Shown piece by piece: positions 1 to 64,000 of a stretch of DNA of 64,000 nucleotides. Each line of letters starts with the position of its first letter. Position 1 is the first letter of the stretch. The position numbers and the translations under genes are program-made. The notes below the pieces were generated by a model, which saw nothing but the letters and a program-made list of their open reading frames with translations, searched no databases and was not told where the DNA came from. The stretch is from Hemiscyllium ocellatum (Eukaryota). Where the stretch lies: assembly GCF_020745735.1 (NCBI RefSeq), contig NW_026867492.1:124001-188000 (forward strand), read 5' to 3'.

Positions 1-224
1 GACAGTCACTCAATCCATCGGGACCTCAACGATTTTCAACTATGATTCTTTGAGAAGGAGCAAAACATTTTGGTTCCTGTTTCAGACAATTTTCAGCATC
101 AGCGGGACTGGATGAGAGTCTCTACTGTTACAGCGCACTTTGTGTAAAGCCTGAAACAGTTATACGGCCAGGAAAGAGGAATTTACTGTGGACAGGGGCC
201 ATACACGAGGCTGTAGCTGCAGCC

Positions 225-1400
225 ATGGTTAAACCAGAGGACTCCCACACCGTGGAGAAACCGTGGAAGTGTTGCGACTGCGGGAGAGGCTTCCATGCCC
301 CATCTGTCCTGGAGATTCATCGGCGAAGTCACACCGGGGAGAGGCCATTCTCCTGCCCCGAGTGCGGAAAAGGCTTTACCTGCTCCTCCCACCTGCTGGA
401 CCACCGCCGAGTCCACACTGGGGAGAAGCCATTCTCCTGCCCTGAGTGTGGGAAGGGCTTCACCTACTCCTCCCACCTGCTGGCCCACCAGCGCGTCCAC
501 GCTGGGGAAAGGCCCTTCCCCTGCTCTGAGTGTGGGAAGGCCTTCAGCAAATCCTCGGACCTGCTGAAGCACCAACGAGTCCACAGAGGGGAGAGGCCAT
601 TCAGCTGCCCTGAGTGCGGGAAGGCCTTCAGTGATTCCTCGATTCTGCTGAGGCACCAGTGGGTCCACATCGGGAAAAGGCCGTTCTCGTGCCCTGAGTG
701 CAGGAAGGGCTTCACCCGCTCTTCTGCTCTGCTGACCCATCTGCGGGTCCACACGGGTGAAAAGCCCTTTAGCTGCCCCGAGTGCAGGATGGCCTTCAGC
801 AGGTCTTCCCACCTGCTGAGGCATCAGCGAGTCCACACTGGGGAGAGGCCGTACTCCTGCCTCCAGTGCGGAAAGTGCTTTACCCAGCCCTCCAACCTGC
901 TGACCCACCAGCGGATCCACACCCGCGAGAGACCGTTCTCCTGCTCCGAGTGCGGGAAGGGTTTTGCTGTTTCCTCTAACCTCGTGGCCCACCGGCGGGT
1001 CCACACGGGGGAGAGGCCATTCAGCTGCCCCGAGTGCGGGAAGGCCTTCAGCAATTCCTCTGCCCTGCTTAGGCACCAGCGCGTTCACACCGGAGAGAAG
1101 CCGTTCTCCTGCCCAGAGTGCGGGAAGGGGTTTACCCGCTCCTCCACACTGCTGACCCACCAGCGGGTCCACACAGGGGAGAGGCCATTCAGCTGCCCCG
1201 AGTGCAGGAAGGCCTTCAGCGATTCCTCCGCTCTGCTGAAGCACCAGCGAGTCCACACCGGGGAGAGGCCCTTCAGCTGCCCTGAGTGCGGAAAGAGGTT
1301 TACATTTTCCCGCAACTTGCGGAAGCACCAGCGGGGGCACCAGCGCTCACAACAATCAGATTCCACCGCTGACACTGCCATGAGTAACCCCCAGGACTGA
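225..1400 (+). CDS. C2H2 zinc-finger protein, 13 tandem fingers, no effector domain visible (ZNF-A, copy 1)
   Basis: 391-aa ORF with good Kozak context (GCAGCCATGG). 13 Cx2Cx12Hx3H units joined by TGE[KR]P-type linkers, with all Zn ligands intact. Confidence 0.92.
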   Translation: MVKPEDSHTVEKPWKCCDCGRGFHAPSVLEIHRRSHTGERPFSCPECGKGFTCSSHLLDHRRVHTGEKPFSCPECGKGFTYSSHLLAHQRVHAGERPFPCSECGKAFSKSSDLLKHQRVHRGERPFSCPECGKAFSDSSILLRHQWVHIGKRPFSCPECRKGFTRSSALLTHLRVHTGEKPFSCPECRMAFSRSSHLLRHQRVHTGERPYSCLQCGKCFTQPSNLLTHQRIHTRERPFSCSECGKGFAVSSNLVAHRRVHTGERPFSCPECGKAFSNSSALLRHQRVHTGEKPFSCPECGKGFTRSSTLLTHQRVHTGERPFSCPECRKAFSDSSALLKHQRVHTGERPFSCPECGKRFTFSRNLRKHQRGHQRSQQSDSTADTAMSNPQD

Positions 1401-1474
1401 TTCTCCTGACAGTGGGTGCAGTGGGAGAGTTGGTGCACTGTATTTGTTTTCCGTTGGACTGCAACCCCACGGTG

Positions 1475-1870
1475 GCTCAGAGGTGGCATGGTGACTGAGT
1501 GATTAGCACTGTTGCCTCATGGCACCAGGAACCAAGGATCAATTCCACCCTTGGGGCGACTGTCTGTGTGGAGTTTGTGGAGGGTAGGAGAATGGATGAG
1601 ATAAGAAACCGCTGCCTGCCTTGAGACAAGTCTCCCGGAGAGAACTTGCTGACTGATTGATTGTCTGATCTCCTGATCCTCACAGTGCCCTATTGCCCTC
1701 AGTTAACTGGAGGAGGTCCACACAGATGTACCGAAGCCCCTCTTTGGACTGTGGAAGGAAACCTGTGCAGACAGGGAAAGCATGCAAACTCCACATAGAC
1801 AGTTACCGGAGGCTGGAATTAAACTTGGGTCCCTTATGCTGTGAGGTAGCAATGCTAAGCAGTGTGCTAC
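1475..1870. mobile_element. Two fragments of tRNA-derived V-SINE (HE1-like) in opposite orientations
   Basis: GGTGGCATGGTGACTGAGTGATTAGCACTGTTGCCTCA... head on the plus strand at about 1482-1578. Reverse copy (AAACTCCACATAGACAG...GCAATGCTAAGCAGTG) at about 1740-1870. Confidence 0.7.
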
Positions 1871-2569
1871 CCCAATATGTTATAAAATTTGAATAAACCT
1901 ACTAAGTTGGAAATGTGTCCATGCCAAGAACTTACTGTAAATGTTTGGAAGCAAAAGTCCATCGAAATTGTCTTTGTGACGGATCTAAAACTTACTTCAT
2001 TAATGATTGAAAATACTTTGACCTCTGGAACTGTCTGCCAGAGAGTGTGTTGGAGTCAGATTCAATTACGGTATTCAAAATAGAGGTGGATCATTCAACT
2101 GAAAAGGAAAGCAATTGTAGTGTTCAGTGAAGAATAGTACAAGGTACTGTAGTGGATGTCAGAATGAATTTTCTGATTGGGGCTGTTCACTTGCTCCTGT
2201 TACCATTTCAGGTTGCTGACTTTTCGTTAGCATCCTGCACATGTTGGGATTTTTTTCTCCTTTCTAGGATCTATTTGAGTGACTCAGTGACAAATCTAGT
2301 TTATGAATTGTTCCTATGATATCTCATGAGAGGGTTTATGATATTCAGTGCTGTATAAATTGTTGTGGGTCACAATGTGTCCAAGTGAGGAAAAACAAAC
2401 TGTTCATCTTAAATATTTGTTTTTAAACAATGGAAATAAACAATGGAAAACACACACAACTTGCTGTGTAGGAATCATCATAAATAGGAATGGGAGTAAG
2501 TAATTGACTGTCGAGATGCTCTGTCTTTCATTTATCTAAATTCTCTTTCCTGTACTTGTTTTTTCGTGA

Positions 2570-3015
2570 CTTCATCTGCTGAAGTGACTACACTCCAAAA
2601 GCTTGTGATTTCAACATAAGAACTAGGAGCAAGAGTCGGCCTTCCGGCCCTTCGAGTCTGCTTCACCACTCAATAAAATCATGACTCATCTTTTCGTGGA
2701 CTATGTATGCTCCACTTACCTGCACTTTCACCATATCCCTTAATTCTTTTATTTTTTCAAAAACGTATCTACTGCTTCTAGTGATTGCTGAAGTAATGTC
2801 AAATACTTCCCTGGGCAAGGAATTCCATAGATGAACAACCCTCTGCGTGAAGAAGTTTCTTCTCAGTTCAGTTTTAAACCTGCTTCCTCTAATCTAGAGG
2901 CCATGCGCTCTTATCCTAGTCTCACCTACCAGTCCAACATTCTATTTCTATTTCTGTAAGATCATCCAAACAACCTGTTGGACTATAACCTGGTGTCATG
3001 TGACTTATGACTAAA
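2570..3015. mobile_element. Penelope-type terminal repeat interrupted by a minus-strand CR1 3' fragment (about 2615-2960)
   Basis: Degenerate hammerhead-like CTGCTGAAG...CAAAAGCTTGTGATTTCAA, resuming at AACCTGTTGGACTATAACCTGGTGT (same family as 15645-15765). The CR1 3' end CATAAGAACTAGGAGCAAG... lies between. Confidence 0.6.
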
Positions 3016-3389
3016 AAATGTGTTACCACGCATCCTCATAGCAGTGGGATTTCAGGGCTCGAAGATTGGGACACTACCACTGCATCATAAAATAAAACCC
3101 TCTGCAGCAAATAGGTCCTCTTCTATTGAATGAATGGGGAGAGGTTTCTTCTCAACATGGGGTACAAATATTATACCCTCAGAGCCCATTACACTGAATT
3201 GAGCCCTCTTCGGTTGAATGAATGGATGTGGAGGTGCCATAGTTGAAAACGTTAAAAATCACATCTTGCCCCTAAATATGTGACACTACCGCTATAGCCC
3301 CAGAGCCCGTTGCAGTAAATTGGGTCAGCTGCTGTTGAATGAATGAACGGGAATGAAAAGGGCGGATTCACTGAGCCGCTTGTGACATT

Positions 3390-3880
3390 CCCCACCAATC
3401 CCAAAGCTTGTGGTCGGTACCGACCAATCGGAGAGAGAGATTGCAGAGGGTGGGACAACATGACACACAAACACGGCCGCTATTGGTCAGGTGGAGACAG
3501 GTGCGCTCTGATTGGAGGAGGGGCGGATGACGCGCGTCACAGGAGGAGACGATGGAAAGAAGAAGAAAAACAAAAATGGCGGCGCGAGGCTGCGGTTTCT
3601 GACGGAGGGAGGGGGGCAGACAGGCATCGTTTACCTCAGAAAATACCTTTAAAATACATTTCACATTAAAGTCGGAACTTTTCAAACAAGAGGTGACGGT
3701 TACCAGGTGAACGGGAAAACAAATTAAAACTGTCGGCGGTGGAGGAGAGAGAGCCGGCGCCCGCGGCTTCTTCGGCGGCGGCCGGAGCCCAGGAGCTCAA
3801 CAACCCCCCGGAGCTGGAGGAAGGTCCGAGCTCCAAGAAGCGGGGGGTCCGGCTGGAGGCTGGATTTACTCAAGGCTTGT
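3390..3880 (+). promoter_or_regulatory. CpG-rich promoter/first-exon region (candidate promoter of ZNF-B)
   Basis: Several CCAAT/ATTGG boxes, GC box GGGGCGG, TGACGC half-CRE, YY1 consensus AAAATGGCGGC at 3573-3583, and high CpG density relative to flanks. Confidence 0.65.
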
Positions 3881-4839
3881 ATCTATTAACTTATTTAAAT
3901 GGTACCTACTGTATGGGGGTATGGTTTACATTAAAACCGGAGGATCATGTCAGAGTGTTTGTTTATATTGAGCAGTTGTAGTTGGTAAAATACACTCCCT
4001 GGAGGAACACCTTCTATGATGCTGCATTTCTTACCTTCTGCCCTTCCCCCATTTGTTATCTCTCATCTCAATTTTACATTTTCGGTCAAATTTAATTTCA
4101 CATTAATCAGCCTTGGTATTCATTGTGTATTATTAATTAATCTGTTGGATTATTGTAAGACAAAATTAATGGTGTAATTTCGTTTATGATGTCTGAGTTT
4201 GACATTGAATGTGCAGGTGTGAATACCAGTACGGTGTAAAAATAAATCAAGAGCTTGTCCTTTTTTAACAAAAAAAGGAGTTTAATGATATTATTGGCAC
4301 TGTCTCCTTGAGCATGATGATTCAAATCTGAGCAACAAACCATTTCATGCAGTCACCCAGTTTAATTCAAGTCGAAGAAAATAATTCTGGCAGGCTAAGA
4401 TTTATACAACCCAAAATATGATTGATTATCTTGTGTATTCTTACCTTTAAGCCGTAACAGAAGGCATTGCGTGGCAGTTTGAGACTGAAACACGGCTGGA
4501 AAGAATGTAGATTGATGAGGAAAATCAAATGGCAGAGTCTGAATCTGTCAGTCTGGCTTGATTGCATGAGTGGTGGTTCTTCAAAAGCATCTTCCAAGCC
4601 ATGACCTCAACCACCAAGAACAGAGAAGTGTGAACACAGGATTCCGACTGCAAGATATATCGCATTGCTTCTTTGTTATTGACCAAAATGCTGGAACTCA
4701 CTCCTGAACATTGTTGCAGACCACACCATGTTTGTGAAGCAATTTAAGAGGCAGCTCAGCACCACCTTTTCAAGGTCAGTTTGGAAAGAGTTGTTGGCAC
4801 AGCCAATGATATTCACATCTCATGAAATAGTAAGCAAAG

Positions 4840-5865
4840 AGCCCAGGGTGTTGGAGGCTGAATGTTAGCATGGATAGAGGATTGGCTAACTACCACAGTT
4901 GTGGTAAGGGGCATGTTCAGGATGGCAACTTGTAACTTGTGGTGTACCACAGGGATCAGCGCTGGGGTCAACATTATTTACAATATGTATACGAATTACT
5001 TGGATAAGTAAAGTGACTGTACTATTGCTAAGTTTGCAGAAGAGACAGTTGATGTGAAAGCAGGTGGTGAGGATGACATTAGATATCTGGAGAGGGATAT
5101 AGACAGGTTAAGCAAATGAACGAAAGCTTGGCAGATGGGAAAATGAGGTCATGCAGTTTGTCAGGAGGTGAAGAACTGAATATTAAATGGAGAAAACTTG
5201 AGAGGGATTTGGAATCACATCCACGAATCTCTTCATCCAATTTCAGTAAGTAATAGGGAGGCAAATGGGAGTTTGGCCTTTTCAACAGAGTATAAATGTA
5301 GAAAGGTTATAGTGAACCTTTGTAAGGCCCTAGTCAGGCCACAAGTGAATACTATGAACAGTTTAGGACCCTTTTACCTGAGGAAAGATATATTGGCATT
5401 GGAGGCAGTCCAGAGATGGTTGACCATGATGATATCAGGGATGGAAAGAATGTCTTATGAGGAGAACTGAATAGGTTGGGCCTGTGCTTATTAGAAGTTA
5501 GAAGAATTAGAGGTAACCTTATTGTCACGTACAAGATTCTGAGGAGACTTGACAAGCTGGACGTGGGAAAGTGGGTGAGTCTGGGACCAGAGGAAGTAAC
5601 CTCCAAATAAGAGATTGCATGTTTAGGACAGATAGGAATTACTCCTGAGGGCAGTAAATCTGTGGAACTTGATACTAAAAGGGCTGTTGAGCCTGGGTTG
5701 TTATGTGCATTCAAGGCTGAGATAGTGTTTGTTTTAATCAGTAAGCGAATTGAGGATTACTGAGGATTATGGGACAATGGCAGAAAAGTGGAGTAAATGT
5801 TTACCAGAATAATTGTGATCTGAATGAATGGCAGAGTCAACTCAATGGGCTGAATTGAACAGTAA
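4840..5865 (+). mobile_element. Old CR1 LINE, ORF2 3' part, degraded
   Basis: Remnant motifs VTCGVPQGS, AKFAE, LVRPQ, ALEAVQRW, MSYEE, ending in a CR1-type 3' tail. Confidence 0.8.
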
Positions 5866-5934
5866 ATACTAATGAGGAAAAGGATACAACTGGCAATTAC
5901 AGACCAGTCAATGTTGGGAAGCCTAGAGATTGTA

Positions 5935-6870
5935 GGGAGTTGGTGGCATTTGGGCATTGTTACTGGATTTAACATCTGGAGTTTCAAAATGATGCTGCTA
6001 TGGCCGCGATGCAATTTGAAATCAATTTATGTATCTGGAATATAAAGCTGCTTTGATGATCTTATCAATTGTCATAAGTACCGATCTTGTTCACTAATAA
6101 CCTTGTTTTTAAGGAAGGAAATCTTCAGTCCTTTCCCAGTTTGGTGAATGTGTCACTCTTGATCCAAAGTCATGTGATTGACTCTTAACTGCCCTCTGAA
6201 TTGGCACTTGGTTCTTTTAGGAGACAAAGTGTCACATTCCATGAATGAATAAAGAAAAATATTCAGGACAAGATTGTCACTGTCAGTGAAGGGAAGATTG
6301 TGATCTAGTGATACTGGTTAAGTAGCCCAGAGATTTCGGTTTTCTGAGAACAAAAATTAAAATCCCATCCTGGATGCTAGTGGACTTTATTTTCAATGAA
6401 TAAAAAGATCAGGAAGTGAGAGTTTGTCTCAGTACTGGCAACAAGGAAACCATTATTGGCTAAGACAATGAATTGCAGATGTTGGAGATCAGCAACAATT
6501 GCTGGGAAACTGCAGCAGGTCTGGCAGCATCTGTGGAAAGAAAACAATTAATGTTTTGAATCCAGCCTAATTTTGAAGGACCACCGGACTCAAAACAGTA
6601 ACACTGTCGTCTCCTCATAGATGCTGCCAGAACTATTGCTTTTGTCCAATCATTACTGATTGTTGTGAAAGTATTCTTTTCGGGAGGGAAATCTACCATT
6701 CACAACCCTACACATGTGTGCGCACGCTCACATCATGTGACTCCAGACCTACTACAATGTGGTTGACTCTCAACTAAGTTCTAGCATGTAGCCAATTGCT
6801 CGGTCAAAAGGCCATGAAGGATGGTGAGCAAATGTTGGACATGCGAGCAACAATCCCATCCCTCAAAATA
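5935..6870 (+). mobile_element. DeuSINE (SacSINE1-like) fragments with a Penelope-derived insert at about 6460-6640
   Basis: Deu-core-like AGGAAGGAAATCT...TGACTCCAGACC...ATGTGGTTGACTCT(T/C)AACT and a CATGAATGAATAAA tail. Confidence 0.55.
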
Positions 6871-6994
6871 TTTTCTTATATATTATAAAGCATAAGTTAA
6901 TGAAGGACAGCCAAAACAAACTGCTATGGGAAGGTCATGCCCAACTAACTTGATTTGCTTGTAGTTATAAATGTTGTTTTTAAAATCTTCTTCA

Positions 6995-7655
6995 GCGAGG
7001 ACATTGGTTCCATCATTGTTGCAATACTGCATGCAATTCTGTGCTTTCTGATACAGGAAGGGTGTTATGAAATTTGAAAGGGTTCAGAAAACATTTACAA
7101 GGATGCTGCCAGGGCTGGAGGGTTTGAGCTACAGGAAGAGGCTGAATAGATTGGGGCTGTTTTCCCTGGAGCTTTGGAGGCTGAGGAGTGACTTTAAAGA
7201 CATTTATAAAATCATGAGAGGCATGGGTAGGGTAAATAGGCAAGGTCTTTTCCCTTGGGTGGGGGAATCCAAAATTAGAGGGCATAGGTTTAAGTTAATG
7301 GCAAATGGAGTTTAATATAGATAAGTGTGAGTTCTTATATTTTGTATCGTCAAATCAAGACAGGAATTCCATGGTGAATAGTAGGACTTTAAGGAGTGTA
7401 ATGGAACGTAGGGATCTTGGAAGGACTCTAGCAAATTAGAGTCGAGATAAGCACCAAATAATAACACATACCAACAAGCACCAAATCTGTTTCATATGCA
7501 GGATTTCAAACCAAGAGATGTAGGGGTGCAGGTTCATCGCACCTGGAAAGTGGAGTCATGGGTAGACAGGGCGGTGAAGAAGACTTTTGGCATGTTTGCT
7601 TTCATCAGTCAGAGTACTGAGTACAGGAGTTGGGATGAATTATTGCAGCTGTCAT
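6995..7655 (+). mobile_element. CR1 LINE ORF2 fragments (rearranged)
   Basis: ORF 7067-7315 KFERVQKTFTRMLPGLEGLSYRKRLNRLGLFSLE..., followed by upstream-type CR1 sequence (DKCEFLYF...). Confidence 0.8.
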
Positions 7656-8533
7656 AGATTTCACATAACAACACAAGATGTAACCCTGCCCTCCCCTGAC
7701 TGACCGTCCCTTTGCATATCAGGGGGAAGATGCCCATTTAATTGTGATGATCAGGAAACATGCCATCCTTCAAAAACAGGGCTGTGTTCACAAATATTTG
7801 GACAGAGGAAGGAAGTTGAAGTTTGGGTGAAGATCAATCTTCATTCAGAGAGAGAAGAAGAGCAGCAGCAGCTTCTGAAATTCATGGTCCAACTTCTGAA
7901 AAGACCTTGTCTGATTTGCAGTTGTTTCTGGGCTTGTAATACCGTACTGCAGCATATTGTAGATCTTCAGTAAGAACGTCAATACTGCACTAGAGGTCCA
8001 TTCAGCAAGTTGAGTCCATGTGAACTCTTTGTTGAGGTATGCAGTCTGCCCCATAACCCTGTTGGTTTACAGTTACATATAGATCTACACAAAGATCTTT
8101 GGGATTGAGAGGAAAGAATGTTCCACAGTAACTAGAATTACGTTTAGATTTTCTGTCATGGACTGACTGTGATGACCCTTGCAATCACTTCACAAGAATA
8201 TTACAAGAGAAGAATTTGGAGGCAGAAATCTCAGACCAAATATCACATCAAAGTCTGACAGTCACTTGATTCACGAGGACGTGGATATTGATGGCCTTGA
8301 AAACAAAGAGGAGAAAGTCTGTCTGCTTAGTTAGGTTTTAAACGTCAGTGTGACTGGAACCTTAGAGTCTCACATACCCACACACCAGAGTAGTGACTGG
8401 AACAAGCTTTACAGACTGAATGAGAGTGTTCCAATTATCAGAGGGTTCACCAGTAACACCACACACATGCTATAAGTGTGAGCGAGTTTTCAACTGATTG
8501 TTAAGGTCAGAGACAGACGAGGGCACCTGTACC

Positions 8534-9040
8534 ATGGAGAAACCGTGGAAATGTGGGGAGTGTGGGAATGGTTTCCCTTCGCTATCTGCGCTGGAGATTC
8601 ATTGGCGTTTGCACGTCGGGCAGCGGCTATTCACCTGTACTCACTGCAGGAAAGGCTTCACTCAGTTACACCACCTCCTGGCCCCCCAGTGGGTCCACAC
8701 CAGCAAGAACCCGTTCATCTGCCCCGTGTGTGGGCAGGGCTTCACTCAGTCACACCAGCTGTTGCCGCACCAGCGGATGCACACCGGAGAGAAACCATTT
8801 TCCTGCTCCGTGTGCGGGAAGGGCTACACCCGGTCGTATCACCTGCTGCTCGGCTTCCACGTCCACACTGGGAAGAAGCCGTTCACCTGTCCCGTGTGGA
8901 GCAATGACTTCTGTGATTCCTCCACCCTGCACAAACACCAGCGCATCCACACCAAGGAGCAGCCGTTCACCTGTCCAGTGTGTGGGAAGGGCTTCACCCA
9001 GTCGTGCAACTTGTGGAGACACCAGCAACTTCACAAGTGA
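8534..9040 (+). CDS. Short C2H2 zinc-finger ORF, 6 fingers of which 3 lack a Zn ligand (ZNF-B, copy 1; possibly a pseudogene)
   Basis: ACCATGG start at MEKPWKCGECG. Finger 2 has H>P (LAPQWVH), finger 4 H>G (LLGFHVH), finger 5 C>W (CPVWS). The frame is open to TGA. Confidence 0.65.
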   Translation: MEKPWKCGECGNGFPSLSALEIHWRLHVGQRLFTCTHCRKGFTQLHHLLAPQWVHTSKNPFICPVCGQGFTQSHQLLPHQRMHTGEKPFSCSVCGKGYTRSYHLLLGFHVHTGKKPFTCPVWSNDFCDSSTLHKHQRIHTKEQPFTCPVCGKGFTQSCNLWRHQQLHK

Positions 9041-9729
9041 GATTGCGCAGGGATTCAGGTTGGATTCTGCTGTTACCGCTGCTGAGAGTCACATCTTGAA
9101 CCCTGTTTAGTGGGTGAAGTGGGAGGGGTAAGGGGTTCCTTTATGCTGACTGGTCGCTCTCACACCCACTTTACTTCCAATGGGGGCTGATGCTCTCTGA
9201 GCCTGGGATTGCACCATCCCTACGGAACAGTCCACAGAAGTGGCTGAAGTGCATTTAGATCTGAAATAGATACATTTGTCTCTGTCCCATTGAGTCTCCA
9301 GCACAGTCGATCCAATTGGCCTCTGTCAGTGTTTATGCTACACCTGAGCATCCACCCACCCCTTCATCAGCATACAGGTATCCCCTGTTTTTGGAAGTTC
9401 ACTTTACCCCCTACCCCCTCCCCATCCAAGCCTGTGCCAATTCTTAATCCTAACTTAGATCTGCTATTTATTGCCGATGTGTGGTTCCTGTCCCTGTATT
9501 CACCTCCCATTCATGTGTCTATCCAGATATACCTTAAGTGTTGCTAAGGTGCCTCTTTCCACTCCATCCAATGGCAATGCATTCCAGGCATCCAGCATCC
9601 AACTGTGTGAAAAATCTTCCCTTTCAATTCTCCCCCAGACTGTCCCCTTCTCGCCTTGAACCTGTGCCCTCTTGTAGTTGACTTTTCCACTCTGGGGAGA
9701 GGGAAAGCCTCTGACTATCTAACAGACTA

Positions 9730-10090
9730 TCTGGCCCAACACCAAACATCCAAAGAATAATCCACACAGACCCATTTCCCTATCCCTATTACTCGACATT
9801 TACCCCTGACGAATGTACCTAACTTTCAATTCTTGAACACTGTGGGGCAATTTAAGCACGGACAATCCAACTTAACCTGCCAATCCCTGGGCAGTGGGTA
9901 ATTTAGCATAGCCACTCCACCCTAACCTACACATTTGGATTGTGAGAGGAAACCGGAGGAAACCCATATCGACACAGGGAGAATTTGCAAACTCCACACA
10001 GACAGTCGCCTGAGACTGAAATCGAACCAGTTTCCCTGGCGCTGTGAGGCATCAGTGCTAATGATTGAGCCACCATGCCACCCCCAACCA
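9730..10090 (-). mobile_element. HE1-like V-SINE
   Basis: Reverse complement reads GGTGGCATGGTGGCTCAATCATTAGCACTGATGCCTCACAGCGCCAGG...CTGTGTGGAGTTTGCA...GTTTCCTCCGGTTTCCTC, the same family as 35958-36273. Confidence 0.8.
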
Positions 10091-10205
10091 GCCAATCGGT
10101 GTGTCTCATCATTTTGTCGAGGTCATCCCTCCGCCTCTATCTTTACAGTGAAAATAATCCAGGTTTACCCCATCTCATCTCATAATGAGACCTCCAGACC
10201 AGGCA

Positions 10206-10487
10206 ATGTCCTAGTGAACCTTCTCTATACCCTCTCCCCAGAGCATCCATGTCCATGTTATCCATGTCCTAGTGAACCTTCTCTATACCCTCTCCCCAGA
10301 GCATCCATGTCCATGTTATCCATGTCCTAGTGAACCTTCTCTATACCCTCTCCCCAGAGCATCCATGTCCATGTTATCCATGTCCTAGTGAACCTTCTCT
10401 ATACCCTCTCCCCAGGGCATCCATGTCCATGTTATCCATGTCCTAGTGACCCTTCTCTACACCCTCTCCCCAGAACATCCATGTCCT
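10206..10487. repeat. Minisatellite, 58-bp unit x about 4.8
   Basis: ATGTCCTAGTGAACCTTCTCTATACCCTCTCCCCAGAGCATCCATGTCCATGTTATCC starting at 10206, 10264, 10322, 10380 and 10438. Confidence 0.95.
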
Positions 10488-16334: not shown

Positions 16335-16335
16335 T

Positions 16336-45142: not shown

Positions 45143-45144
45143 AC

Positions 45145-53000: not shown

Positions 53001-53099
53001 GATGCTTCCAAGCTGACCCTCAAATTTGGTTTGTCCCTGCATTCTTTCCTGGTTGTCTTTTTGTGGGTTTTGAAAACTTTCCCAATCCGCTGACTGAGG

Positions 53100-53655: not shown

Positions 53656-53809
53656 CTGGCTTGCCACAAACATTTGCCATGTCCGTATGTTTAGTTTCTC
53701 TCGGGTTGTCTGTGTCAATGCCTTGATGTCTCATTCCACCCACCACATACCACCACCACCCACCACAGGGACGATAACCAATTCATGTCTGATTTTTTTA
53801 TCATTGCAG

Positions 53810-54459
53810 GTTCAACCTGAATTTACACTTCTTTTGCTTCCCAAAATTAGACTTGCTCACTCTCAGCAATATCCTGAAAGATATTAACTTTCACGTGGTG
53901 TTATCCAAAATTCGAAGATGTCAGTCCTGACGTTTTTTGAGAGTGGGATGCTTTCAATTTTGTGGAACAGCAAAAGAAAAAAATGTTCTGCAGAAAGTGG
54001 AGTAGCTTGTTCTGAATTTCTACCCTGGACTGACCGTGATGACTTTTGTAATCTCTTTTTCCAGAGTATTTGAAGATCTGAAGACTGAAGTTTAAAAATC
54101 AACAGATGAAGGGCCTATGCCTGAATCGTCGATTCTCCTGCTGTTTGGATGCTGCCTGACCTGCTGTGCTGTTCCAGCACCGCACTTTTCAACTCCTCTC
54201 CAGCCTCTGCAGTCCCCACTTTCACATCAATGTCTGACAGTCACTCAATCCATCGGGACCTCAACGATTTTCAACTATGATTCTTTGAGAAGGAGCAAAA
54301 CATTTTGGTTCCTGTTTCAGACAATTTTCAGCATCAGCGGGACTGGATGAGAGTCTCTACTGTTACAGCGCACTTTGTGTAAAGCCTGAAACAGTTATAC
54401 GGCCAGGAAAGAGGAATTTACTGTGGACAGGGGCCATACACGAGGCTGTAGCTGCAGCC
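53810..54459 (+). other. Inferred 5' UTR exons/intron of ZNF-A, shared with ZNF-C and ZNF-D
   Basis: Acceptor TCATTGCAG|G (53810) is homologous to minus-strand acceptors at 18060 and 26294. Last-exon acceptor TTTTCCAG|AGTATTTG (54065) is homologous to 25952. Confidence 0.55.
54104..54222 (+). mobile_element. Penelope-derived repeat with decayed hammerhead in the ZNF-A 5' UTR
   Basis: (C)AGATGA-A-GGGC-CTAT-GCCT-GAAT-CGTC...GATGCTGCCTGACCTGCTG. Orthologous at 25793-25913 and 17621-17721. Confidence 0.8.
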
Positions 54460-55635
54460 ATGGTTAAACCAGAGGACTCCCACACCGTGGAGAAACCGTG
54501 GAAGTGTTGCGACTGCGGGAGAGGCTTCCATGCCCCATCTGTCCTGGAGATTCATCGGCGAAGTCACACCGGGGAGAGGCCATTCTCCTGCCCCGAGTGC
54601 GGAAAAGGCTTTACCTGCTCCTCCCACCTGCTGGACCACCGCCGAGTCCACACTGGGGAGAAGCCATTCTCCTGCCCTGAGTGTGGGAAGGGCTTCACCT
54701 ACTCCTCCCACCTGCTGGCCCACCAGCGCGTCCACGCTGGGGAAAGGCCCTTCCCCTGCTCTGAGTGTGGGAAGGCCTTCAGCAAATCCTCGGACCTGCT
54801 GAAGCACCAACGAGTCCACAGAGGGGAGAGGCCATTCAGCTGCCCTGAGTGCGGGAAGGCCTTCAGTGATTCCTCGATTCTGCTGAGGCACCAGTGGGTC
54901 CACATCGGGAAAAGGCCGTTCTCGTGCCCTGAGTGCAGGAAGGGCTTCACCCGCTCTTCTGCTCTGCTGACCCATCTGCGGGTCCACACGGGTGAAAAGC
55001 CCTTTAGCTGCCCCGAGTGCAGGATGGCCTTCAGCAGGTCTTCCCACCTGCTGAGGCATCAGCGAGTCCACACTGGGGAGAGGCCGTACTCCTGCCTCCA
55101 GTGCGGAAAGTGCTTTACCCAGCCCTCCAACCTGCTGACCCACCAGCGGATCCACACCCGCGAGAGACCGTTCTCCTGCTCCGAGTGCGGGAAGGGTTTT
55201 GCTGTTTCCTCTAACCTCGTGGCCCACCGGCGGGTCCACACGGGGGAGAGGCCATTCAGCTGCCCCGAGTGCGGGAAGGCCTTCAGCAATTCCTCTGCCC
55301 TGCTTAGGCACCAGCGCGTTCACACCGGAGAGAAGCCGTTCTCCTGCCCAGAGTGCGGGAAGGGGTTTACCCGCTCCTCCACACTGCTGACCCACCAGCG
55401 GGTCCACACAGGGGAGAGGCCATTCAGCTGCCCCGAGTGCAGGAAGGCCTTCAGCGATTCCTCCGCTCTGCTGAAGCACCAGCGAGTCCACACCGGGGAG
55501 AGGCCCTTCAGCTGCCCTGAGTGCGGAAAGAGGTTTACATTTTCCCGCAACTTGCGGAAGCACCAGCGGGGGCACCAGCGCTCACAACAATCAGATTCCA
55601 CCGCTGACACTGCCATGAGTAACCCCCAGGACTGA
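54460..55635 (+). CDS. C2H2 zinc-finger protein, 13 fingers (ZNF-A, copy 2)
   Basis: 391-aa translation identical to 225-1400. Confidence 0.92.
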   Translation: MVKPEDSHTVEKPWKCCDCGRGFHAPSVLEIHRRSHTGERPFSCPECGKGFTCSSHLLDHRRVHTGEKPFSCPECGKGFTYSSHLLAHQRVHAGERPFPCSECGKAFSKSSDLLKHQRVHRGERPFSCPECGKAFSDSSILLRHQWVHIGKRPFSCPECRKGFTRSSALLTHLRVHTGEKPFSCPECRMAFSRSSHLLRHQRVHTGERPYSCLQCGKCFTQPSNLLTHQRIHTRERPFSCSECGKGFAVSSNLVAHRRVHTGERPFSCPECGKAFSNSSALLRHQRVHTGEKPFSCPECGKGFTRSSTLLTHQRVHTGERPFSCPECRKAFSDSSALLKHQRVHTGERPFSCPECGKRFTFSRNLRKHQRGHQRSQQSDSTADTAMSNPQD

Positions 55636-57624
55636 TTCTCCTGACAGTGGGTGCAGTGGGAGAGTTGGTGCACTGTATTTGTTTTCCGTTGGACTGCAAC
55701 CCCACGGTGGCTCAGAGGTGGCATGGTGACTGAGTGATTAGCACTGTTGCCTCATGGCACCAGGAACCAAGGATCAATTCCACCCTTGGGGCGACTGTCT
55801 GTGTGGAGTTTGTGGAGGGTAGGAGAATGGATGAGATAAGAAACCGCTGCCTGCCTTGAGACAAGTCTCCCGGAGAGAACTTGCTGACTGATTGATTGTC
55901 TGATCTCCTGATCCTCACAGTGCCCTATTGCCCTCAGTTAACTGGAGGAGGTCCACACAGATGTACCGAAGCCCCTCTTTGGACTGTGGAAGGAAACCTG
56001 TGCAGACAGGGAAAGCATGCAAACTCCACATAGACAGTTACCGGAGGCTGGAATTAAACTTGGGTCCCTTATGCTGTGAGGTAGCAATGCTAAGCAGTGT
56101 GCTACCCCAATATGTTATAAAATTTGAATAAACCTACTAAGTTGGAAATGTGTCCATGCCAAGAACTTACTGTAAATGTTTGGAAGCAAAAGTCCATCGA
56201 AATTGTCTTTGTGACGGATCTAAAACTTACTTCATTAATGATTGAAAATACTTTGACCTCTGGAACTGTCTGCCAGAGAGTGTGTTGGAGTCAGATTCAA
56301 TTACGGTATTCAAAATAGAGGTGGATCATTCAACTGAAAAGGAAAGCAATTGTAGTGTTCAGTGAAGAATAGTACAAGGTACTGTAGTGGATGTCAGAAT
56401 GAATTTTCTGATTGGGGCTGTTCACTTGCTCCTGTTACCATTTCAGGTTGCTGACTTTTCGTTAGCATCCTGCACATGTTGGGATTTTTTTCTCCTTTCT
56501 AGGATCTATTTGAGTGACTCAGTGACAAATCTAGTTTATGAATTGTTCCTATGATATCTCATGAGAGGGTTTATGATATTCAGTGCTGTATAAATTGTTG
56601 TGGGTCACAATGTGTCCAAGTGAGGAAAAACAAACTGTTCATCTTAAATATTTGTTTTTAAACAATGGAAATAAACAATGGAAAACACACACAACTTGCT
56701 GTGTAGGAATCATCATAAATAGGAATGGGAGTAAGTAATTGACTGTCGAGATGCTCTGTCTTTCATTTATCTAAATTCTCTTTCCTGTACTTGTTTTTTC
56801 GTGACTTCATCTGCTGAAGTGACTACACTCCAAAAGCTTGTGATTTCAACATAAGAACTAGGAGCAAGAGTCGGCCTTCCGGCCCTTCGAGTCTGCTTCA
56901 CCACTCAATAAAATCATGACTCATCTTTTCGTGGACTATGTATGCTCCACTTACCTGCACTTTCACCATATCCCTTAATTCTTTTATTTTTTCAAAAACG
57001 TATCTACTGCTTCTAGTGATTGCTGAAGTAATGTCAAATACTTCCCTGGGCAAGGAATTCCATAGATGAACAACCCTCTGCGTGAAGAAGTTTCTTCTCA
57101 GTTCAGTTTTAAACCTGCTTCCTCTAATCTAGAGGCCATGCGCTCTTATCCTAGTCTCACCTACCAGTCCAACATTCTATTTCTATTTCTGTAAGATCAT
57201 CCAAACAACCTGTTGGACTATAACCTGGTGTCATGTGACTTATGACTAAAAAATGTGTTACCACGCATCCTCATAGCAGTGGGATTTCAGGGCTCGAAGA
57301 TTGGGACACTACCACTGCATCATAAAATAAAACCCTCTGCAGCAAATAGGTCCTCTTCTATTGAATGAATGGGGAGAGGTTTCTTCTCAACATGGGGTAC
57401 AAATATTATACCCTCAGAGCCCATTACACTGAATTGAGCCCTCTTCGGTTGAATGAATGGATGTGGAGGTGCCATAGTTGAAAACGTTAAAAATCACATC
57501 TTGCCCCTAAATATGTGACACTACCGCTATAGCCCCAGAGCCCGTTGCAGTAAATTGGGTCAGCTGCTGTTGAATGAATGAACGGGAATGAAAAGGGCGG
57601 ATTCACTGAGCCGCTTGTGACATT

Positions 57625-58115
57625 CCCCACCAATCCCAAAGCTTGTGGTCGGTACCGACCAATCGGAGAGAGAGATTGCAGAGGGTGGGACAACATGACA
57701 CACAAACACGGCCGCTATTGGTCAGGTGGAGACAGGTGCGCTCTGATTGGAGGAGGGGCGGATGACGCGCGTCACAGGAGGAGACGATGGAAAGAAGAAG
57801 AAAAACAAAAATGGCGGCGCGAGGCTGCGGTTTCTGACGGAGGGAGGGGGGCAGACAGGCATCGTTTACCTCAGAAAATACCTTTAAAATACATTTCACA
57901 TTAAAGTCGGAACTTTTCAAACAAGAGGTGACGGTTACCAGGTGAACGGGAAAACAAATTAAAACTGTCGGCGGTGGAGGAGAGAGAGCCGGCGCCCGCG
58001 GCTTCTTCGGCGGCGGCCGGAGCCCAGGAGCTCAACAACCCCCCGGAGCTGGAGGAAGGTCCGAGCTCCAAGAAGCGGGGGGTCCGGCTGGAGGCTGGAT
58101 TTACTCAAGGCTTGT
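57625..58115 (+). promoter_or_regulatory. CpG-rich promoter (copy of 3390-3880)
   Basis: Same CCAAT, GC-box and YY1 (57808-57818) motifs. Confidence 0.65.
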
Positions 58116-61100
58116 ATCTATTAACTTATTTAAATGGTACCTACTGTATGGGGGTATGGTTTACATTAAAACCGGAGGATCATGTCAGAGTGTTTGTTTA
58201 TATTGAGCAGTTGTAGTTGGTAAAATACACTCCCTGGAGGAACACCTTCTATGATGCTGCATTTCTTACCTTCTGCCCTTCCCCCATTTGTTATCTCTCA
58301 TCTCAATTTTACATTTTCGGTCAAATTTAATTTCACATTAATCAGCCTTGGTATTCATTGTGTATTATTAATTAATCTGTTGGATTATTGTAAGACAAAA
58401 TTAATGGTGTAATTTCGTTTATGATGTCTGAGTTTGACATTGAATGTGCAGGTGTGAATACCAGTACGGTGTAAAAATAAATCAAGAGCTTGTCCTTTTT
58501 TAACAAAAAAAGGAGTTTAATGATATTATTGGCACTGTCTCCTTGAGCATGATGATTCAAATCTGAGCAACAAACCATTTCATGCAGTCACCCAGTTTAA
58601 TTCAAGTCGAAGAAAATAATTCTGGCAGGCTAAGATTTATACAACCCAAAATATGATTGATTATCTTGTGTATTCTTACCTTTAAGCCGTAACAGAAGGC
58701 ATTGCGTGGCAGTTTGAGACTGAAACACGGCTGGAAAGAATGTAGATTGATGAGGAAAATCAAATGGCAGAGTCTGAATCTGTCAGTCTGGCTTGATTGC
58801 ATGAGTGGTGGTTCTTCAAAAGCATCTTCCAAGCCATGACCTCAACCACCAAGAACAGAGAAGTGTGAACACAGGATTCCGACTGCAAGATATATCGCAT
58901 TGCTTCTTTGTTATTGACCAAAATGCTGGAACTCACTCCTGAACATTGTTGCAGACCACACCATGTTTGTGAAGCAATTTAAGAGGCAGCTCAGCACCAC
59001 CTTTTCAAGGTCAGTTTGGAAAGAGTTGTTGGCACAGCCAATGATATTCACATCTCATGAAATAGTAAGCAAAGAGCCCAGGGTGTTGGAGGCTGAATGT
59101 TAGCATGGATAGAGGATTGGCTAACTACCACAGTTGTGGTAAGGGGCATGTTCAGGATGGCAACTTGTAACTTGTGGTGTACCACAGGGATCAGCGCTGG
59201 GGTCAACATTATTTACAATATGTATACGAATTACTTGGATAAGTAAAGTGACTGTACTATTGCTAAGTTTGCAGAAGAGACAGTTGATGTGAAAGCAGGT
59301 GGTGAGGATGACATTAGATATCTGGAGAGGGATATAGACAGGTTAAGCAAATGAACGAAAGCTTGGCAGATGGGAAAATGAGGTCATGCAGTTTGTCAGG
59401 AGGTGAAGAACTGAATATTAAATGGAGAAAACTTGAGAGGGATTTGGAATCACATCCACGAATCTCTTCATCCAATTTCAGTAAGTAATAGGGAGGCAAA
59501 TGGGAGTTTGGCCTTTTCAACAGAGTATAAATGTAGAAAGGTTATAGTGAACCTTTGTAAGGCCCTAGTCAGGCCACAAGTGAATACTATGAACAGTTTA
59601 GGACCCTTTTACCTGAGGAAAGATATATTGGCATTGGAGGCAGTCCAGAGATGGTTGACCATGATGATATCAGGGATGGAAAGAATGTCTTATGAGGAGA
59701 ACTGAATAGGTTGGGCCTGTGCTTATTAGAAGTTAGAAGAATTAGAGGTAACCTTATTGTCACGTACAAGATTCTGAGGAGACTTGACAGGCTGGACGTG
59801 GGAAAGTGGGTGAGTCTGGGACCAGAGGAAGTAACCTCCAAATAAGAGATTGCATGTTTAGGACAGATAGGAATTACTCCTGAGGGCAGTAAATCTGTGG
59901 AACTTGATACTAAAAGGGCTGTTGAGCCTGGGTTGTTATGTGCATTCAAGGCTGAGATAGTGTTTGTTTTAATCAGTAAGCGAATTGAGGATTACTGAGG
60001 ATTATGGGACAATGGCAGAAAAGTGGAGTAAATGTTTACCAGAATAATTGTGATCTGAATGAATGGCAGAGTCAACTCAATGGGCTGAATTGAACAGTAA
60101 ATACTAATGAGGAAAAGGATACAACTGGCAATTACAGACCAGTCAATGTTGGGAAGCCTAGAGATTGTAGGGAGTTGGTGGCATTTGGGCATTGTTACTG
60201 GATTTAACATCTGGAGTTTCAAAATGATGCTGCTATGGCCGCGATGCAATTTGAAATCAATTTATGTATCTGGAATATAAAGCTGCTTTGATGATCTTAT
60301 CAATTGTCATAAGTACCGATCTTGTTCACTAATAACCTTGTTTTTAAGGAAGGAAATCTTCAGTCCTTTCCCAGTTTGGTGAATGTGTCACTCTTGATCC
60401 AAAGTCATGTGATTGACTCTTAACTGCCCTCTGAATTGGCACTTGGTTCTTTTAGGAGACAAAGTGTCACATTCCATGAATGAATAAAGAAAAATATTCA
60501 GGACAAGATTGTCACTGTCAGTGAAGGGAAGATTGTGATCTAGTGATACTGGTTAAGTAGCCCAGAGATTTCGGTTTTCTGAGAACAAAAATTAAAATCC
60601 CATCCTGGATGCTAGTGGACTTTATTTTCAATGAATAAAAAGATCAGGAAGTGAGAGTTTGTCTCAGTACTGGCAACAAGGAAACCATTATTGGCTAAGA
60701 CAATGAATTGCAGATGTTGGAGATCAGCAACAATTGCTGGGAAACTGCAGCAGGTCTGGCAGCATCTGTGGAAAGAAAACAATTAATGTTTTGAATCCAG
60801 CCTAATTTTGAAGGACCACCGGACTCAAAACAGTAACACTGTCGTCTCCTCATAGATGCTGCCAGAACTATTGCTTTTGTCCAATCATTACTGATTGTTG
60901 TGAAAGTATTCTTTTCGGGAGGGAAATCTACCATTCACAACCCTACACATGTGTGCGCACGCTCACATCATGTGACTCCAGACCTACTACAATGTGGTTG
61001 ACTCTCAACTAAGTTCTAGCATGTAGCCAATTGCTCGGTCAAAAGGCCATGAAGGATGGTGAGCAAATGTTGGACATGCGAGCAACAATCCCATCCCTCA

Positions 61101-62768
61101 AAATATTTTCTTATATATTATAAAGCATAAGTTAATGAAGGACAGCCAAAACAAACTGCTATGGGAAGGTCATGCCCAACTAACTTGATTTGCTTGTAGT
61201 TATAAATGTTGTTTTTAAAATCTTCTTCAGCGAGGACATTGGTTCCATCATTGTTGCAATACTGCATGCAATTCTGTGCTTTCTGATACAGGAAGGGTGT
61301 TATGAAATTTGAAAGGGTTCAGAAAACATTTACAAGGATGCTGCCAGGGCTGGAGGGTTTGAGCTACAGGAAGAGGCTGAATAGATTGGGGCTGTTTTCC
61401 CTGGAGCTTTGGAGGCTGAGGAGTGACTTTAAAGACATTTATAAAATCATGAGAGGCATGGGTAGGGTAAATAGGCAAGGTCTTTTCCCTTGGGTGGGGG
61501 AATCCAAAATTAGAGGGCATAGGTTTAAGTTAATGGCAAATGGAGTTTAATATAGATAAGTGTGAGTTCTTATATTTTGTATCGTCAAATCAAGACAGGA
61601 ATTCCATGGTGAATAGTAGGACTTTAAGGAGTGTAATGGAACGTAGGGATCTTGGAAGGACTCTAGCAAATTAGAGTCGAGATAAGCACCAAATAATAAC
61701 ACATACCAACAAGCACCAAATCTGTTTCATATGCAGGATTTCAAACCAAGAGATGTAGGGGTGCAGGTTCATCGCACCTGGAAAGTGGAGTCATGGGTAG
61801 ACAGGGCGGTGAAGAAGACTTTTGGCATGTTTGCTTTCATCAGTCAGAGTACTGAGTACAGGAGTTGGGATGAATTATTGCAGCTGTCATAGATTTCACA
61901 TAACAACACAAGATGTAACCCTGCCCTCCCCTGACTGACCGTCCCTTTGCATATCAGGGGGAAGATGCCCATTTAATTGTGATGATCAGGAAACATGCCA
62001 TCCTTCAAAAACAGGGCTGTGTTCACAAATATTTGGACAGAGGAAGGAAGTTGAAGTTTGGGTGAAGATCAATCTTCATTCAGAGAGAGAAGAAGAGCAG
62101 CAGCAGCTTCTGAAATTCATGGTCCAACTTCTGAAAAGACCTTGTCTGATTTGCAGTTGTTTCTGGGCTTGTAATACCGTACTGCAGCATATTGTAGATC
62201 TTCAGTAAGAACGTCAATACTGCACTAGAGGTCCATTCAGCAAGTTGAGTCCATGTGAACTCTTTGTTGAGGTATGCAGTCTGCCCCATAACCCTGTTGG
62301 TTTACAGTTACATATAGATCTACACAAAGATCTTTGGGATTGAGAGGAAAGAATGTTCCACAGTAACTAGAATTACGTTTAGATTTTCTGTCATGGACTG
62401 ACTGTGATGACCCTTGCAATCACTTCACAAGAATATTACAAGAGAAGAATTTGGAGGCAGAAATCTCAGACCAAATATCACATCAAAGTCTGACAGTCAC
62501 TTGATTCACGAGGACGTGGATATTGATGGCCTTGAAAACAAAGAGGAGAAAGTCTGTCTGCTTAGTTAGGTTTTAAACGTCAGTGTGACTGGAACCTTAG
62601 AGTCTCACATACCCACACACCAGAGTAGTGACTGGAACAAGCTTTACAGACTGAATGAGAGTGTTCCAATTATCAGAGGGTTCACCAGTAACACCACACA
62701 CATGCTATAAGTGTGAGCGAGTTTTCAACTGATTGTTAAGGTCAGAGACAGACGAGGGCACCTGTACC

Positions 62769-63275
62769 ATGGAGAAACCGTGGAAATGTGGGGAGTGTGG
62801 GAATGGTTTCCCTTCGCTATCTGCGCTGGAGATTCATTGGCGTTTGCACGTCGGGCAGCGGCTATTCACCTGTACTCACTGCAGGAAAGGCTTCACTCAG
62901 TTACACCACCTCCTGGCCCCCCAGTGGGTCCACACCAGCAAGAACCCGTTCATCTGCCCCGTGTGTGGGCAGGGCTTCACTCAGTCACACCAGCTGTTGC
63001 CGCACCAGCGGATGCACACCGGAGAGAAACCATTTTCCTGCTCCGTGTGCGGGAAGGGCTACACCCGGTCGTATCACCTGCTGCTCGGCTTCCACGTCCA
63101 CACTGGGAAGAAGCCGTTCACCTGTCCCGTGTGGAGCAATGACTTCTGTGATTCCTCCACCCTGCACAAACACCAGCGCATCCACACCAAGGAGCAGCCG
63201 TTCACCTGTCCAGTGTGTGGGAAGGGCTTCACCCAGTCGTGCAACTTGTGGAGACACCAGCAACTTCACAAGTGA
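62769..63275 (+). CDS. Degenerate 6-finger C2H2 ORF (ZNF-B, copy 2)
   Basis: Translation identical to 8534-9040. Confidence 0.65.
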   Translation: MEKPWKCGECGNGFPSLSALEIHWRLHVGQRLFTCTHCRKGFTQLHHLLAPQWVHTSKNPFICPVCGQGFTQSHQLLPHQRMHTGEKPFSCSVCGKGYTRSYHLLLGFHVHTGKKPFTCPVWSNDFCDSSTLHKHQRIHTKEQPFTCPVCGKGFTQSCNLWRHQQLHK

Positions 63276-64000
63276 GATTGCGCAGGGATTCAGGTTGGAT
63301 TCTGCTGTTACCGCTGCTGAGAGTCACATCTTGAACCCTGTTTAGTGGGTGAAGTGGGAGGGGTAAGGGGTTCCTTTATGCTGACTGGTCGCTCTCACAC
63401 CCACTTTACTTCCAATGGGGGCTGATGCTCTCTGAGCCTGGGATTGCACCATCCCTACGGAACAGTCCACAGAAGTGGCTGAAGTGCATTTAGATCTGAA
63501 ATAGATACATTTGTCTCTGTCCCATTGAGTCTCCAGCACAGTCGATCCAATTGGCCTCTGTCAGTGTTTATGCTACACCTGAGCATCCACCCACCCCTTC
63601 ATCAGCATACAGGTATCCCCTGTTTTTGGAAGTTCACTTTACCCCCTACCCCCTCCCCATCCAAGCCTGTGCCAATTCTTAATCCTAACTTAGATCTGCT
63701 ATTTATTGCCGATGTGTGGTTCCTGTCCCTGTATTCACCTCCCATTCATGTGTCTATCCAGATATACCTTAAGTGTTGCTAAGGTGCCTCTTTCCACTCC
63801 ATCCAATGGCAATGCATTCCAGGCATCCAGCATCCAACTGTGTGAAAAATCTTCCCTTTCAATTCTCCCCCAGACTGTCCCCTTCTCGCCTTGAACCTGT
63901 GCCCTCTTGTAGTTGACTTTTCCACTCTGGGGAGAGGGAAAGCCTCTGACTATCTAACAGACTATCTGGCCCAACACCAAACATCCAAAGAATAATCCAC

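What the first reader, a model, noticed from the sequence alone, without database searches (positions are those of the whole stretch)
1..64000. 54,235-bp near-perfect direct repeat: possible ZNF macro-tandem array or false duplication
Seen: 1-9765 equals 54236-64000, including old decayed TEs, with only one substitution noticed (A5555/G59790). Identity runs to both window edges, so no breakpoint is visible. Inference: the whole 54-kb block (4 ZNF loci, QSOX exon, ERV, Penelope elements) may be one unit of a very recent or homogenised tandem array that amplifies ZNF-A. Alternatively two haplotypes were assembled in series.
Basis: partly seen in the sequence, partly recalled or inferred. Interest (0 to 1): 0.7.

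Follow-up and report, generated by a model that had tools for sequence, protein, structure and literature searches.

The report
False 54-kb tandem at assembly gap
The 54,000-letter twin stretch is in the file, but both copies stop exactly at a 13-letter assembly gap, so it is likely two overlapping assembly pieces pasted end to end and not a real back-to-back duplication of zinc-finger genes.

Summary
In detail: 1-9765 equals 54236-64000 with one substitution. The macro-tandem reading is not supported. With the flanks fetched, the left copy (C79:84,292-138,849) ends on the last base before the gap and the right copy (138,863-193,079) starts on the first base after it. Scaffold C94 ends exactly one base before the right copy's start, so that contig was likely cut there and re-joined. 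Five other 13-N gaps carry overlaps of 11-78 kb or more with the same pinning, three exact at both edges. Optical-map scaffolders are documented to write unmerged overlaps as 13 N. The copies differ by 29 real-looking substitutions in 50 kb, so they likely come from two haplotypes or from two paralogous loci sharing a ~95-kb near-identical core. Read depth could not settle which. The family does contain real, gap-free, older tandem duplicates elsewhere. Earlier scan notes on this genome describe other ZNF clusters, not this artefact. Verdict: known assembly artefact, low interest.

The parts
1..14849 (+). Tail of left contig (A). The full left copy is C79:84,292-138,849 and ends on the last base before the gap
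   Evidence: 4 A-only error-like events in the last ~1.5 kb where B and C83 agree
14850..14862 (.). 13-N scaffold gap: the breakpoint of the duplicate
   Evidence: meaning of 13 N
14863..64000 (+). Head of right contig (B). The right copy runs on to window 69,079 (C79:193,079)
14863..18900 (+). Divergent head of B: 94-97% to A, closer to paralogue C66 (97.7%). It abuts the end of scaffold C94 with no overlap and no gap
   Evidence: (35 A-only, 7 B-only, 8 C66-only substitutions in 17320-19100)
15022..15027 (.). CTTAAG (DLE-1-type label site, recalled) 160 bp after the inferred cut; a second site lies 102-107 bp before it on C94
1..9765 (+). Part of the overlap visible in the window (left)
54236..64000 (+). 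Part of the overlap visible in the window (right); one substitution, at 59790
54..1400 (+). ZNF-A: 448-aa open frame of tandem C2H2 fingers; no KRAB family among the best 25 of 26 Pfam hits
54289..55635 (+). Identical second copy of ZNF-A, present at this locus only because of the overlap (inferred)
8498..9040 (+). Degenerate C2H2 finger array (second copy 62733-63275)
16357..17505 (-). ZNF-B finger array; the A and B versions differ by one 84-bp finger
24938..25437 (-). Fourth finger array (six 84-bp repeats)
35948..36270 (.). Young high-copy 323-bp insertion (99-100% to copies on many chromosomes), shared by A and B and absent from C105 and C66; marks A and B as sisters
38657..39247 (+). Decayed retroviral-type RT-RNaseH fragment (described only)
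46071..46529 (+). GIY-YIG fragment (Penelope-like, by recalled association)
   Evidence: E 8.6e-5

Best explanation
The 54.2-kb direct repeat is pinned at both edges to a 13-N gap and is likely a scaffolding artefact, in which two long-read contigs that overlap by 54 kb were written one after the other instead of being merged. Inferred order of events: (1) contig A ended naturally inside a near-identical block. (2) A second contig, today's C94 (reverse) plus B, entered the same block from another upstream context. (3) An optical-map scaffolder saw a conflict, cut that contig at a label site, left C94 apart, and placed B behind A with its fixed 13-N mark for overlapping contigs. The two copies are real but different molecules: two haplotypes, or two paralogous loci that share a ~95-kb core at 99.95%. 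The 54,235-bp period is then just the distance between where A happened to end and where B was cut. This locus would carry one ZNF-A, not two.
For: Shown: both edges coincide with the gap to the base. C94 base 1 corresponds to C79:84,291 and C66:639,107, while B base 1 corresponds to 84,292 and 639,108, so they abut exactly. B's first 1.38 kb has no B-only indel against A and C66, whereas A's last 1.5 kb has 4 A-only events: a cut start and a natural end. The cut lies between two CTTAAG sites ~260 bp apart, with 10 and 9 such sites in the two copies. Of 8 13-N gaps seen, 2 lie inside a 3.3-kb array and cannot be tested. Of the other 6, both edges are exact in 4 (C79, C64 50.8 kb, C87 26.2 kb, C83 11.4 kb) and one edge in 2 (C86 78.4 kb, left edge 224 bp short; C73, right edge not matched). 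The C86 edges were predicted before fetching, and the C83 gap was met without selecting for a duplicate. 23 of 23 homologues (>=97%) of A's end listed run straight into B-type downstream sequence. 0 of 6 homologues of B's start have A's end upstream, and 5 of 6 have A's upstream context. Literature: 13-N gaps mark unmerged overlaps and duplicate up to 237 kb (PMC7649008); overlaps are annotated as 13N gaps and chimeric contigs are cut at conflicts (10.1101/2020.01.14.906230); gaps between pairs typify false duplications (PMC9516828).
Against: No optical map, AGP file or raw reads were seen, so use of an optical-map scaffolder is inferred from the 13-N length and the cut. Four of the six test gaps (C64, C86, C87, C73) were fetched because near-identical pairs pointed to them, so that count is biased. 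Edges pinned to a gap also arise if a real tandem junction lies inside the gap. Real gap-free tandem duplicates of this family exist with periods of 51.9 kb (C73) and 58.9 kb (C64), close to 54 kb and to the 50.8-kb C64 overlap. Three near-identical versions (A, B, C83) of a 12-kb segment exist, with three allele combinations at two sites 68 bp apart, so the block is probably duplicated somewhere. Short-read contigs shared by A, B and C66 had depths of 1.9 to about 9 times the rough single-copy level in four other samples, more than a one-locus model needs.
Confidence: 0.9

Rival explanations
1. Real ~54-kb tandem duplication or macro-array amplifying ZNF-A, with its junction hidden in the gap.
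For: The family forms gap-free tandem duplicates with 52-59-kb periods, plus a 7,033-bp tandem at 99.84% in C64 that its C73 homologue lacks. Copies are 99.94% alike over 50 kb. Contig depths in other samples are often 3 times single copy or more (weak).
Against: B's own upstream exists and is C94, not A's end. No homologue shows the junction (23 of 23 and 0 of 6). There are only two full copies in the whole scaffold. Real gap-free pairs are mosaic, 92-99.6%, and do not stay near-identical over a full period. The same gap-pinned pattern recurs at unrelated lengths.
Confidence: 0.04
2. Source of the two copies, option 1 (within the best explanation): two paralogous loci. Locus 1 would be A-upstream + core + tRNA arrays, and locus 2 C94 + core + C83-downstream. 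They would share a ~95-kb core at 99.95%, across which the assembler switched.
For: Two different upstream arms: C94 follows A for only ~2.7 kb, and none of its other ~106 kb before a long N run matches A-upstream in blocks of 1.2 kb or more at 85%. Two downstream arms: C83 follows B for 57 kb at 99.7%, then drops to 92-96% and has one initiator-type Met tRNA unit where C79 has ~60. Shoulder divergence of 2-6% is far above the 0.05-0.07% of the cores. Three versions of one segment.
Against: No depth or phasing data. Mixed-read consensus could make a third mosaic version from two haplotypes. No second assembled copy at 99% or more of window 14,863-57,000 was found apart from A and B (40 candidates scored in each).
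Confidence: 0.5
3. Source of the two copies, option 2 (within the best explanation): maternal and paternal haplotypes of one structurally polymorphic locus (heterotype false duplication).
For: PMC7649008 says such overlaps usually correspond to allelic duplications. Core divergence of 0.058% resembles that at C86 (0.071%). Of the 29 substitutions, 13 are A-odd, 11 B-odd, 4 have each allele shared with a paralogue, and 1 is unpolarised. A and B share a young insertion and an 8-bp deletion that most outgroups lack.
Against: It needs alleles that differ by 2-6% on both shoulders and are unrelated beyond them. It leaves C83 as a third version. Overlap divergence ranges from 0.06 to 0.37% across the gaps.
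Confidence: 0.38
4. Homotype false duplication: one molecule assembled twice, with the differences being sequencing errors.
For: Error-like 1-bp indels at A's end and at C83's end.
Against: Core differences are mostly substitutions (14 transitions, 8 transversions in 43 kb), several alleles are shared with paralogues, and the 4.2-kb head differs by 3-6% with an 84-bp and a 59-bp indel.
Confidence: 0.02

Closest known systems
13-N unmerged contig overlaps of Bionano hybrid scaffolding (BiSCoT, PMC7649008; maize B73-Ab10 pipeline, 10.1101/2020.01.14.906230)
   Same: 13-N gap, contig tail repeated as the next contig's head, size within the reported range (up to 237 kb), and a conflict-type cut next to label sites.
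   Different: The map alignment itself was not seen. Here the overlap may be between paralogues rather than alleles.
Heterotype false duplications (PMC9516828)
   Same: Gap between a duplicated pair on one scaffold, giving a false gain of a gene (ZNF-A).
   Different: Half depth, discordant linked reads and 1-copy k-mers were not shown. Depth may be normal if two loci share the block.
Segmental-duplication growth of tandem C2H2 zinc-finger clusters (KRAB-ZNF clusters of tetrapods; recalled, and named in earlier scan notes)
   Same: At least 40 homologues at 85-100% on many small scaffolds, with mosaic-age tandem duplicates at 52-59-kb periods.
   Different: This particular 54-kb pair is not shown to be such an event. 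No KRAB family was among the listed Pfam hits of these ORFs.

Membership tests
13-N unmerged overlap (optical-map hybrid scaffold) | A gap of exactly 13 N between the copies | tested here: met
13-N unmerged overlap (optical-map hybrid scaffold) | Left copy ends at the gap and right copy begins at it | tested here: met
   138,849 and 138,863
13-N unmerged overlap (optical-map hybrid scaffold) | Both contig ends carry the same label sites | tested here: inconclusive
   In silico 10 vs 9 DLE-1, 4 vs 4 BspQI and 9 vs 9 BssSI sites with matching spacing (sites recalled). The enzyme used is unknown.
13-N unmerged overlap (optical-map hybrid scaffold) | Both contigs align to the same map labels (negative gap in the XMAP/AGP file) | not testable with these tools
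   No map files available
Conflict-cut chimeric contig | The severed partner abuts the cut with no overlap and no gap | tested here: met
   C94 base 1 and B base 1 are neighbours in A and in C66
Heterotype false duplication (PMC9516828) | Gap between the duplicated pair | tested here: met
Heterotype false duplication (PMC9516828) | Half read depth over both copies | tested here: inconclusive
   Only short-read contigs of other samples; depths 1.9 to about 9 times a rough single-copy level
Heterotype false duplication (PMC9516828) | Discordant linked reads; 1-copy k-mers | not testable with these tools
   22 of 22 listed runs are contigs only
Homotype false duplication | Differences are sequencing errors | tested here: not met
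   only A's last 1.5 kb looks erroneous
Real macro-tandem array | Contiguous junction from unit end to unit start | tested here: not met
   Gap at the junction; 23 of 23 end homologues continue B-like; 0 of 6 start homologues follow an end
Real macro-tandem array | More than two units, or periodicity running through the flanks | tested here: not met
   Whole scaffold: two copies plus one 10.9-kb piece at 98.2%
Real macro-tandem array | A single molecule spans two units | not testable with these tools
   No long reads or optical molecules

The most novel reading that the evidence does not exclude
The tandem is false, but the block is truly present twice per haploid genome. Two old (92-98%) zinc-finger/tRNA loci share a ~95-kb core that is 99.95% identical, with sharp shoulders on both sides. 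That would be a very recent, very long homogenisation or segmental duplication that copies ZNF-A and its neighbours between cluster units, one of which then expanded a ~60-copy initiator-type tRNA array in which 26 of 59 genes carry a CGT anticodon.
Probability: 0.45. Interest if true: 0.35.

Novelty: not a real feature. Interest (0 to 1): 0.1.

Why it matters
As biology the 54-kb tandem matters little: it is likely a known scaffolding error. In practice it warns that zinc-finger gene counts and 'recent amplification' claims on these small scaffolds are inflated. All 6 testable 13-N gaps seen were flanked by near-identical duplicates of 11-78 kb or more (four of them were fetched for that reason). 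It also shows that the usual half-depth test can mislead in clusters rich in segmental duplications. Had the tandem been real, it would have been a fresh ZNF amplification caught in the act.

Tried and rejected
Read evidence: 22 runs hold part of window 9500-14800, all as short-read contigs, with a best share of 0.64. Laying 4 runs on 17320-19100 was swamped by repeats. Only 32 pieces were shown and 99,810 were not. One 110-bp contig fits the A type by its count of differences (letters not shown), and two fit the B/C66 type, each at about twice the rough single-copy depth read from joint contigs (about 9-17, 9, 28 and 8). These are other samples, and the tool warns that depth is no copy number, so this is inconclusive. 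No depth was obtained at the A+B-specific insertion junctions, so haplotype versus paralogue stays open.

In one search the alignment columns for L098-L101 were in the wrong orientation and were dropped. Only the B, A and C66 columns and the BLAST rows were used.

QSOX exon: not confirmed. A six-frame Pfam scan of the whole unit was not obtained.

The idea that A continues as C83 on the same molecule was weakened: C83 shares A's allele at 2 sites, but A and B share a derived base and an 8-bp deletion against it.

The idea that the 13 N are a masked stretch was rejected, because the duplicate edges and the C94 cut coincide with them. A 32,305-N run in C94 may be a map-sized gap or a withheld stretch, and was not used as evidence.

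Paper searches on shark ZNF/tRNA clusters and on initiator-tRNA anticodon variants gave nothing relevant in their listings (15 of 27 and 12 of 17 shown). This is no claim of absence. PMC8081667 and PMC5411772 passages added only general background. No supplements were read.
Full report
Observation. At offset 54,235 the window matches itself over 9,765 bases with one mismatch, A5555/G59790. The window is G000:C79:124,001-188,000, on a 576,962-bp scaffold of a 3.98-Gb assembly. Earlier scan notes call the animal a shark; I did not test that. The only N run in the window is 13 N at 14850-14862.

Extent. With the scaffold's flanks fetched, the duplicate resolves to C79:84,292-138,849 against 138,863-193,079. 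The left copy (contig A) ends on the last base before the 13 N, and the right copy (contig B) begins on the first base after them. Over the core there are 29 substitutions in 50,124 aligned bases. Of these, 13 are A-odd, 11 B-odd, 4 have each allele shared with a paralogue, and 1 is unpolarised. The first ~4.2 kb of B is only 94-97% like A and closer to paralogue C66. The whole scaffold holds no third full unit, only a 10.9-kb piece at 98.2%.

The nature of the two ends. A's last 1.5 kb has 4 events in which A alone differs from B, C83 and most outgroups, as at a thinly covered contig end (inference). B's first 1.38 kb has no B-only indel against A and C66. A search with the sequence that precedes the duplicate found scaffold C94, whose base 1 corresponds to C79:84,291 and to C66:639,107, while B's base 1 corresponds to 84,292 and 639,108. 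C94 (reverse) and B therefore abut exactly, which indicates one contig cut in two (inference). CTTAAG sites lie 102-107 bp before and 160 bp after the cut, against about one site per 5.4 kb in the block; that this is the DLE-1 site is recalled. Beyond ~2.7 kb C94 no longer follows A's upstream sequence, which would give a map conflict.

No junction elsewhere. All 23 homologues (>=97%) of A's end listed outside C79 run directly into B-type downstream sequence. None of 6 fetched homologues of B's start has A's end upstream, and 5 have A's upstream context. Each genome search scored only 40 candidates, so these lists are lower bounds.

The pattern recurs. Eight 13-N gaps were seen in the sequence fetched; two lie inside a 3.29-kb array and cannot be tested. 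Of the other six, both edges are exact at C79 (54.2 kb), C64 (50.8 kb), C87 (26.2 kb) and C83 (11.4 kb). At C86 (78.4 kb) the right edge is exact and the left 224 bp short (predicted before fetching). At C73 the left edge is exact, but the scaffold's first 10 kb does not match at the expected place. C64, C86, C87 and C73 were chosen because of near-identical pairs; the C83 gap was not.

Against my reading. Two pairs have no gap: C64 with a 58.9-kb period (28 kb at 98.8-99.6%) and C73 with a 51.9-kb period (92-99.6%). Real tandem duplicates of this family therefore exist at similar periods, but they are mosaic in age.

Literature. BiSCoT (PMC7649008; abstract, introduction, methods and start of results read) states that the Bionano scaffolder writes contig 1, 13 N, contig 2 when contigs share labels. 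This duplicates the shared region: 515 cases, up to 237 kb, in a human test, usually allelic. A maize preprint (10.1101/2020.01.14.906230; 4 passages) says overlaps are annotated as 13N gaps and chimeric contigs joined through repeats are cut at map conflicts. PMC9516828 (12 of 27 passages) lists gaps between pairs, half depth, discordant linked reads and 1-copy k-mers as marks of false duplication. PMC8081667 and PMC5411772 (passages) gave background only.

Mechanism. Shown: the gap, the pinned edges, the C94/B abutment, the error profile of the two ends, and the recurrence. Inferred: that an optical-map scaffolder cut C94 from B and laid B over A without merging, and that the locus has one copy of the block and one ZNF-A. 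Confidence 0.9; a real 54-kb tandem 0.04.

What the two copies are. C83's end follows B for 57 kb at 99.7% (20 substitutions in a 41.9-kb part), then falls to 92-96% and holds one Met(CAT) tRNA unit where C79 has about 60. So two upstream arms (A, C94) and two downstream arms (B, C83) surround a ~95-kb near-identical core (C79 ~142.9-237.8 kb). Three versions of a 12-kb segment exist, with conflicting groupings. This fits two paralogous loci (0.5) slightly better than two haplotypes (0.38). Public data are short-read contigs of other samples and did not decide it. If two loci are right, depth over window 14,863-57,000 would be normal even though the tandem is false.

Content. Finger ORFs, a GIY-YIG fragment and an RT-RNaseH fragment are confirmed by Pfam (6 of the 14 scanned frames were not needed for this; 5 of 14 had hits). 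ZNF-A's best solved relative is ZNF568, at the level of generic finger arrays. The QSOX exon is unconfirmed.

Verdict. A real observation with an ordinary cause: a documented scaffolding artefact in a zinc-finger cluster rich in segmental duplications. Interest 0.1. The most interesting by-product is outside the window: 26 of 59 tRNA genes in the neighbouring array have an initiator-Met-type body with a CGT anticodon.

Noticed in passing
G000:C79:258,316-454,352 (L056-L079; outside the window): Tandem array of a 3.29-kb unit, about 60 copies, 98-99.7% alike, one tRNA gene per unit. 30 genes are identical with anticodon CAT, 26 differ only by A>G at the middle anticodon base (CGT), and 3 are single variants. 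The two types come in runs. The body has initiator-Met hallmarks (A1:U72, three G:C pairs in the anticodon stem, A54; recalled), so ARAGORN's 'Thr' label is likely wrong. If expressed and charged, it would read ACG. A 24-base pattern finds 46 exact CGT copies in the genome: C79 26, C90 12, C66 6, C101 1, C406 1; control 0. Two 13-N gaps inside the array may inflate the counts. Expression untested; one paper search showed nothing relevant. Worth its own look.
   Followed up: partly
G000:C79:486,105-495,584 (L082-L083): 727-bp tandem array, 13 copies at 99.9%, each with a tRNA-Glu(CTC) gene, no gap inside.
   Followed up: partly
G000:C64:538,730; C86:277,294; C87:206,351; C83:316,911; C73:83,213: Further 13-N gaps flanked by near-identical duplicates (50.8, 78.4, 26.2 and 11.4 kb, and at least 43 kb at C73): likely more false ZNF gains on these scaffolds.
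   Followed up: yes
G000:C64:424,913-511,966 and C73:290,265-369,770: Gap-free tandem duplicates of the same ZNF block family (periods 58.9 and 51.9 kb, mosaic 92-99.6%). C64 and C73 share about 70 kb at 99.2-99.9%, except for a 7,033-bp tandem (99.84%) found only in C64. These are the better candidates for a real macro-array.
   Followed up: partly
window 18,700-18,900: Sharp switch of relationships: upstream B groups with C66, downstream B groups with A. This looks like a recombination or conversion breakpoint just upstream of the ZNF-B exon.
   Followed up: partly
window 10,206-10,486: 58-bp minisatellite, 4.8 copies at 97%.
   Followed up: no
   Followed up: partly
G000:C83:~335,789 and C86 fetched part: ARAGORN calls a tRNA with anticodon CTA (labelled Pyl) on C83 and one with TCA (labelled SeC) on C86, among Trp/Glu/Asn genes; possibly further anticodon variants.
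   Followed up: no
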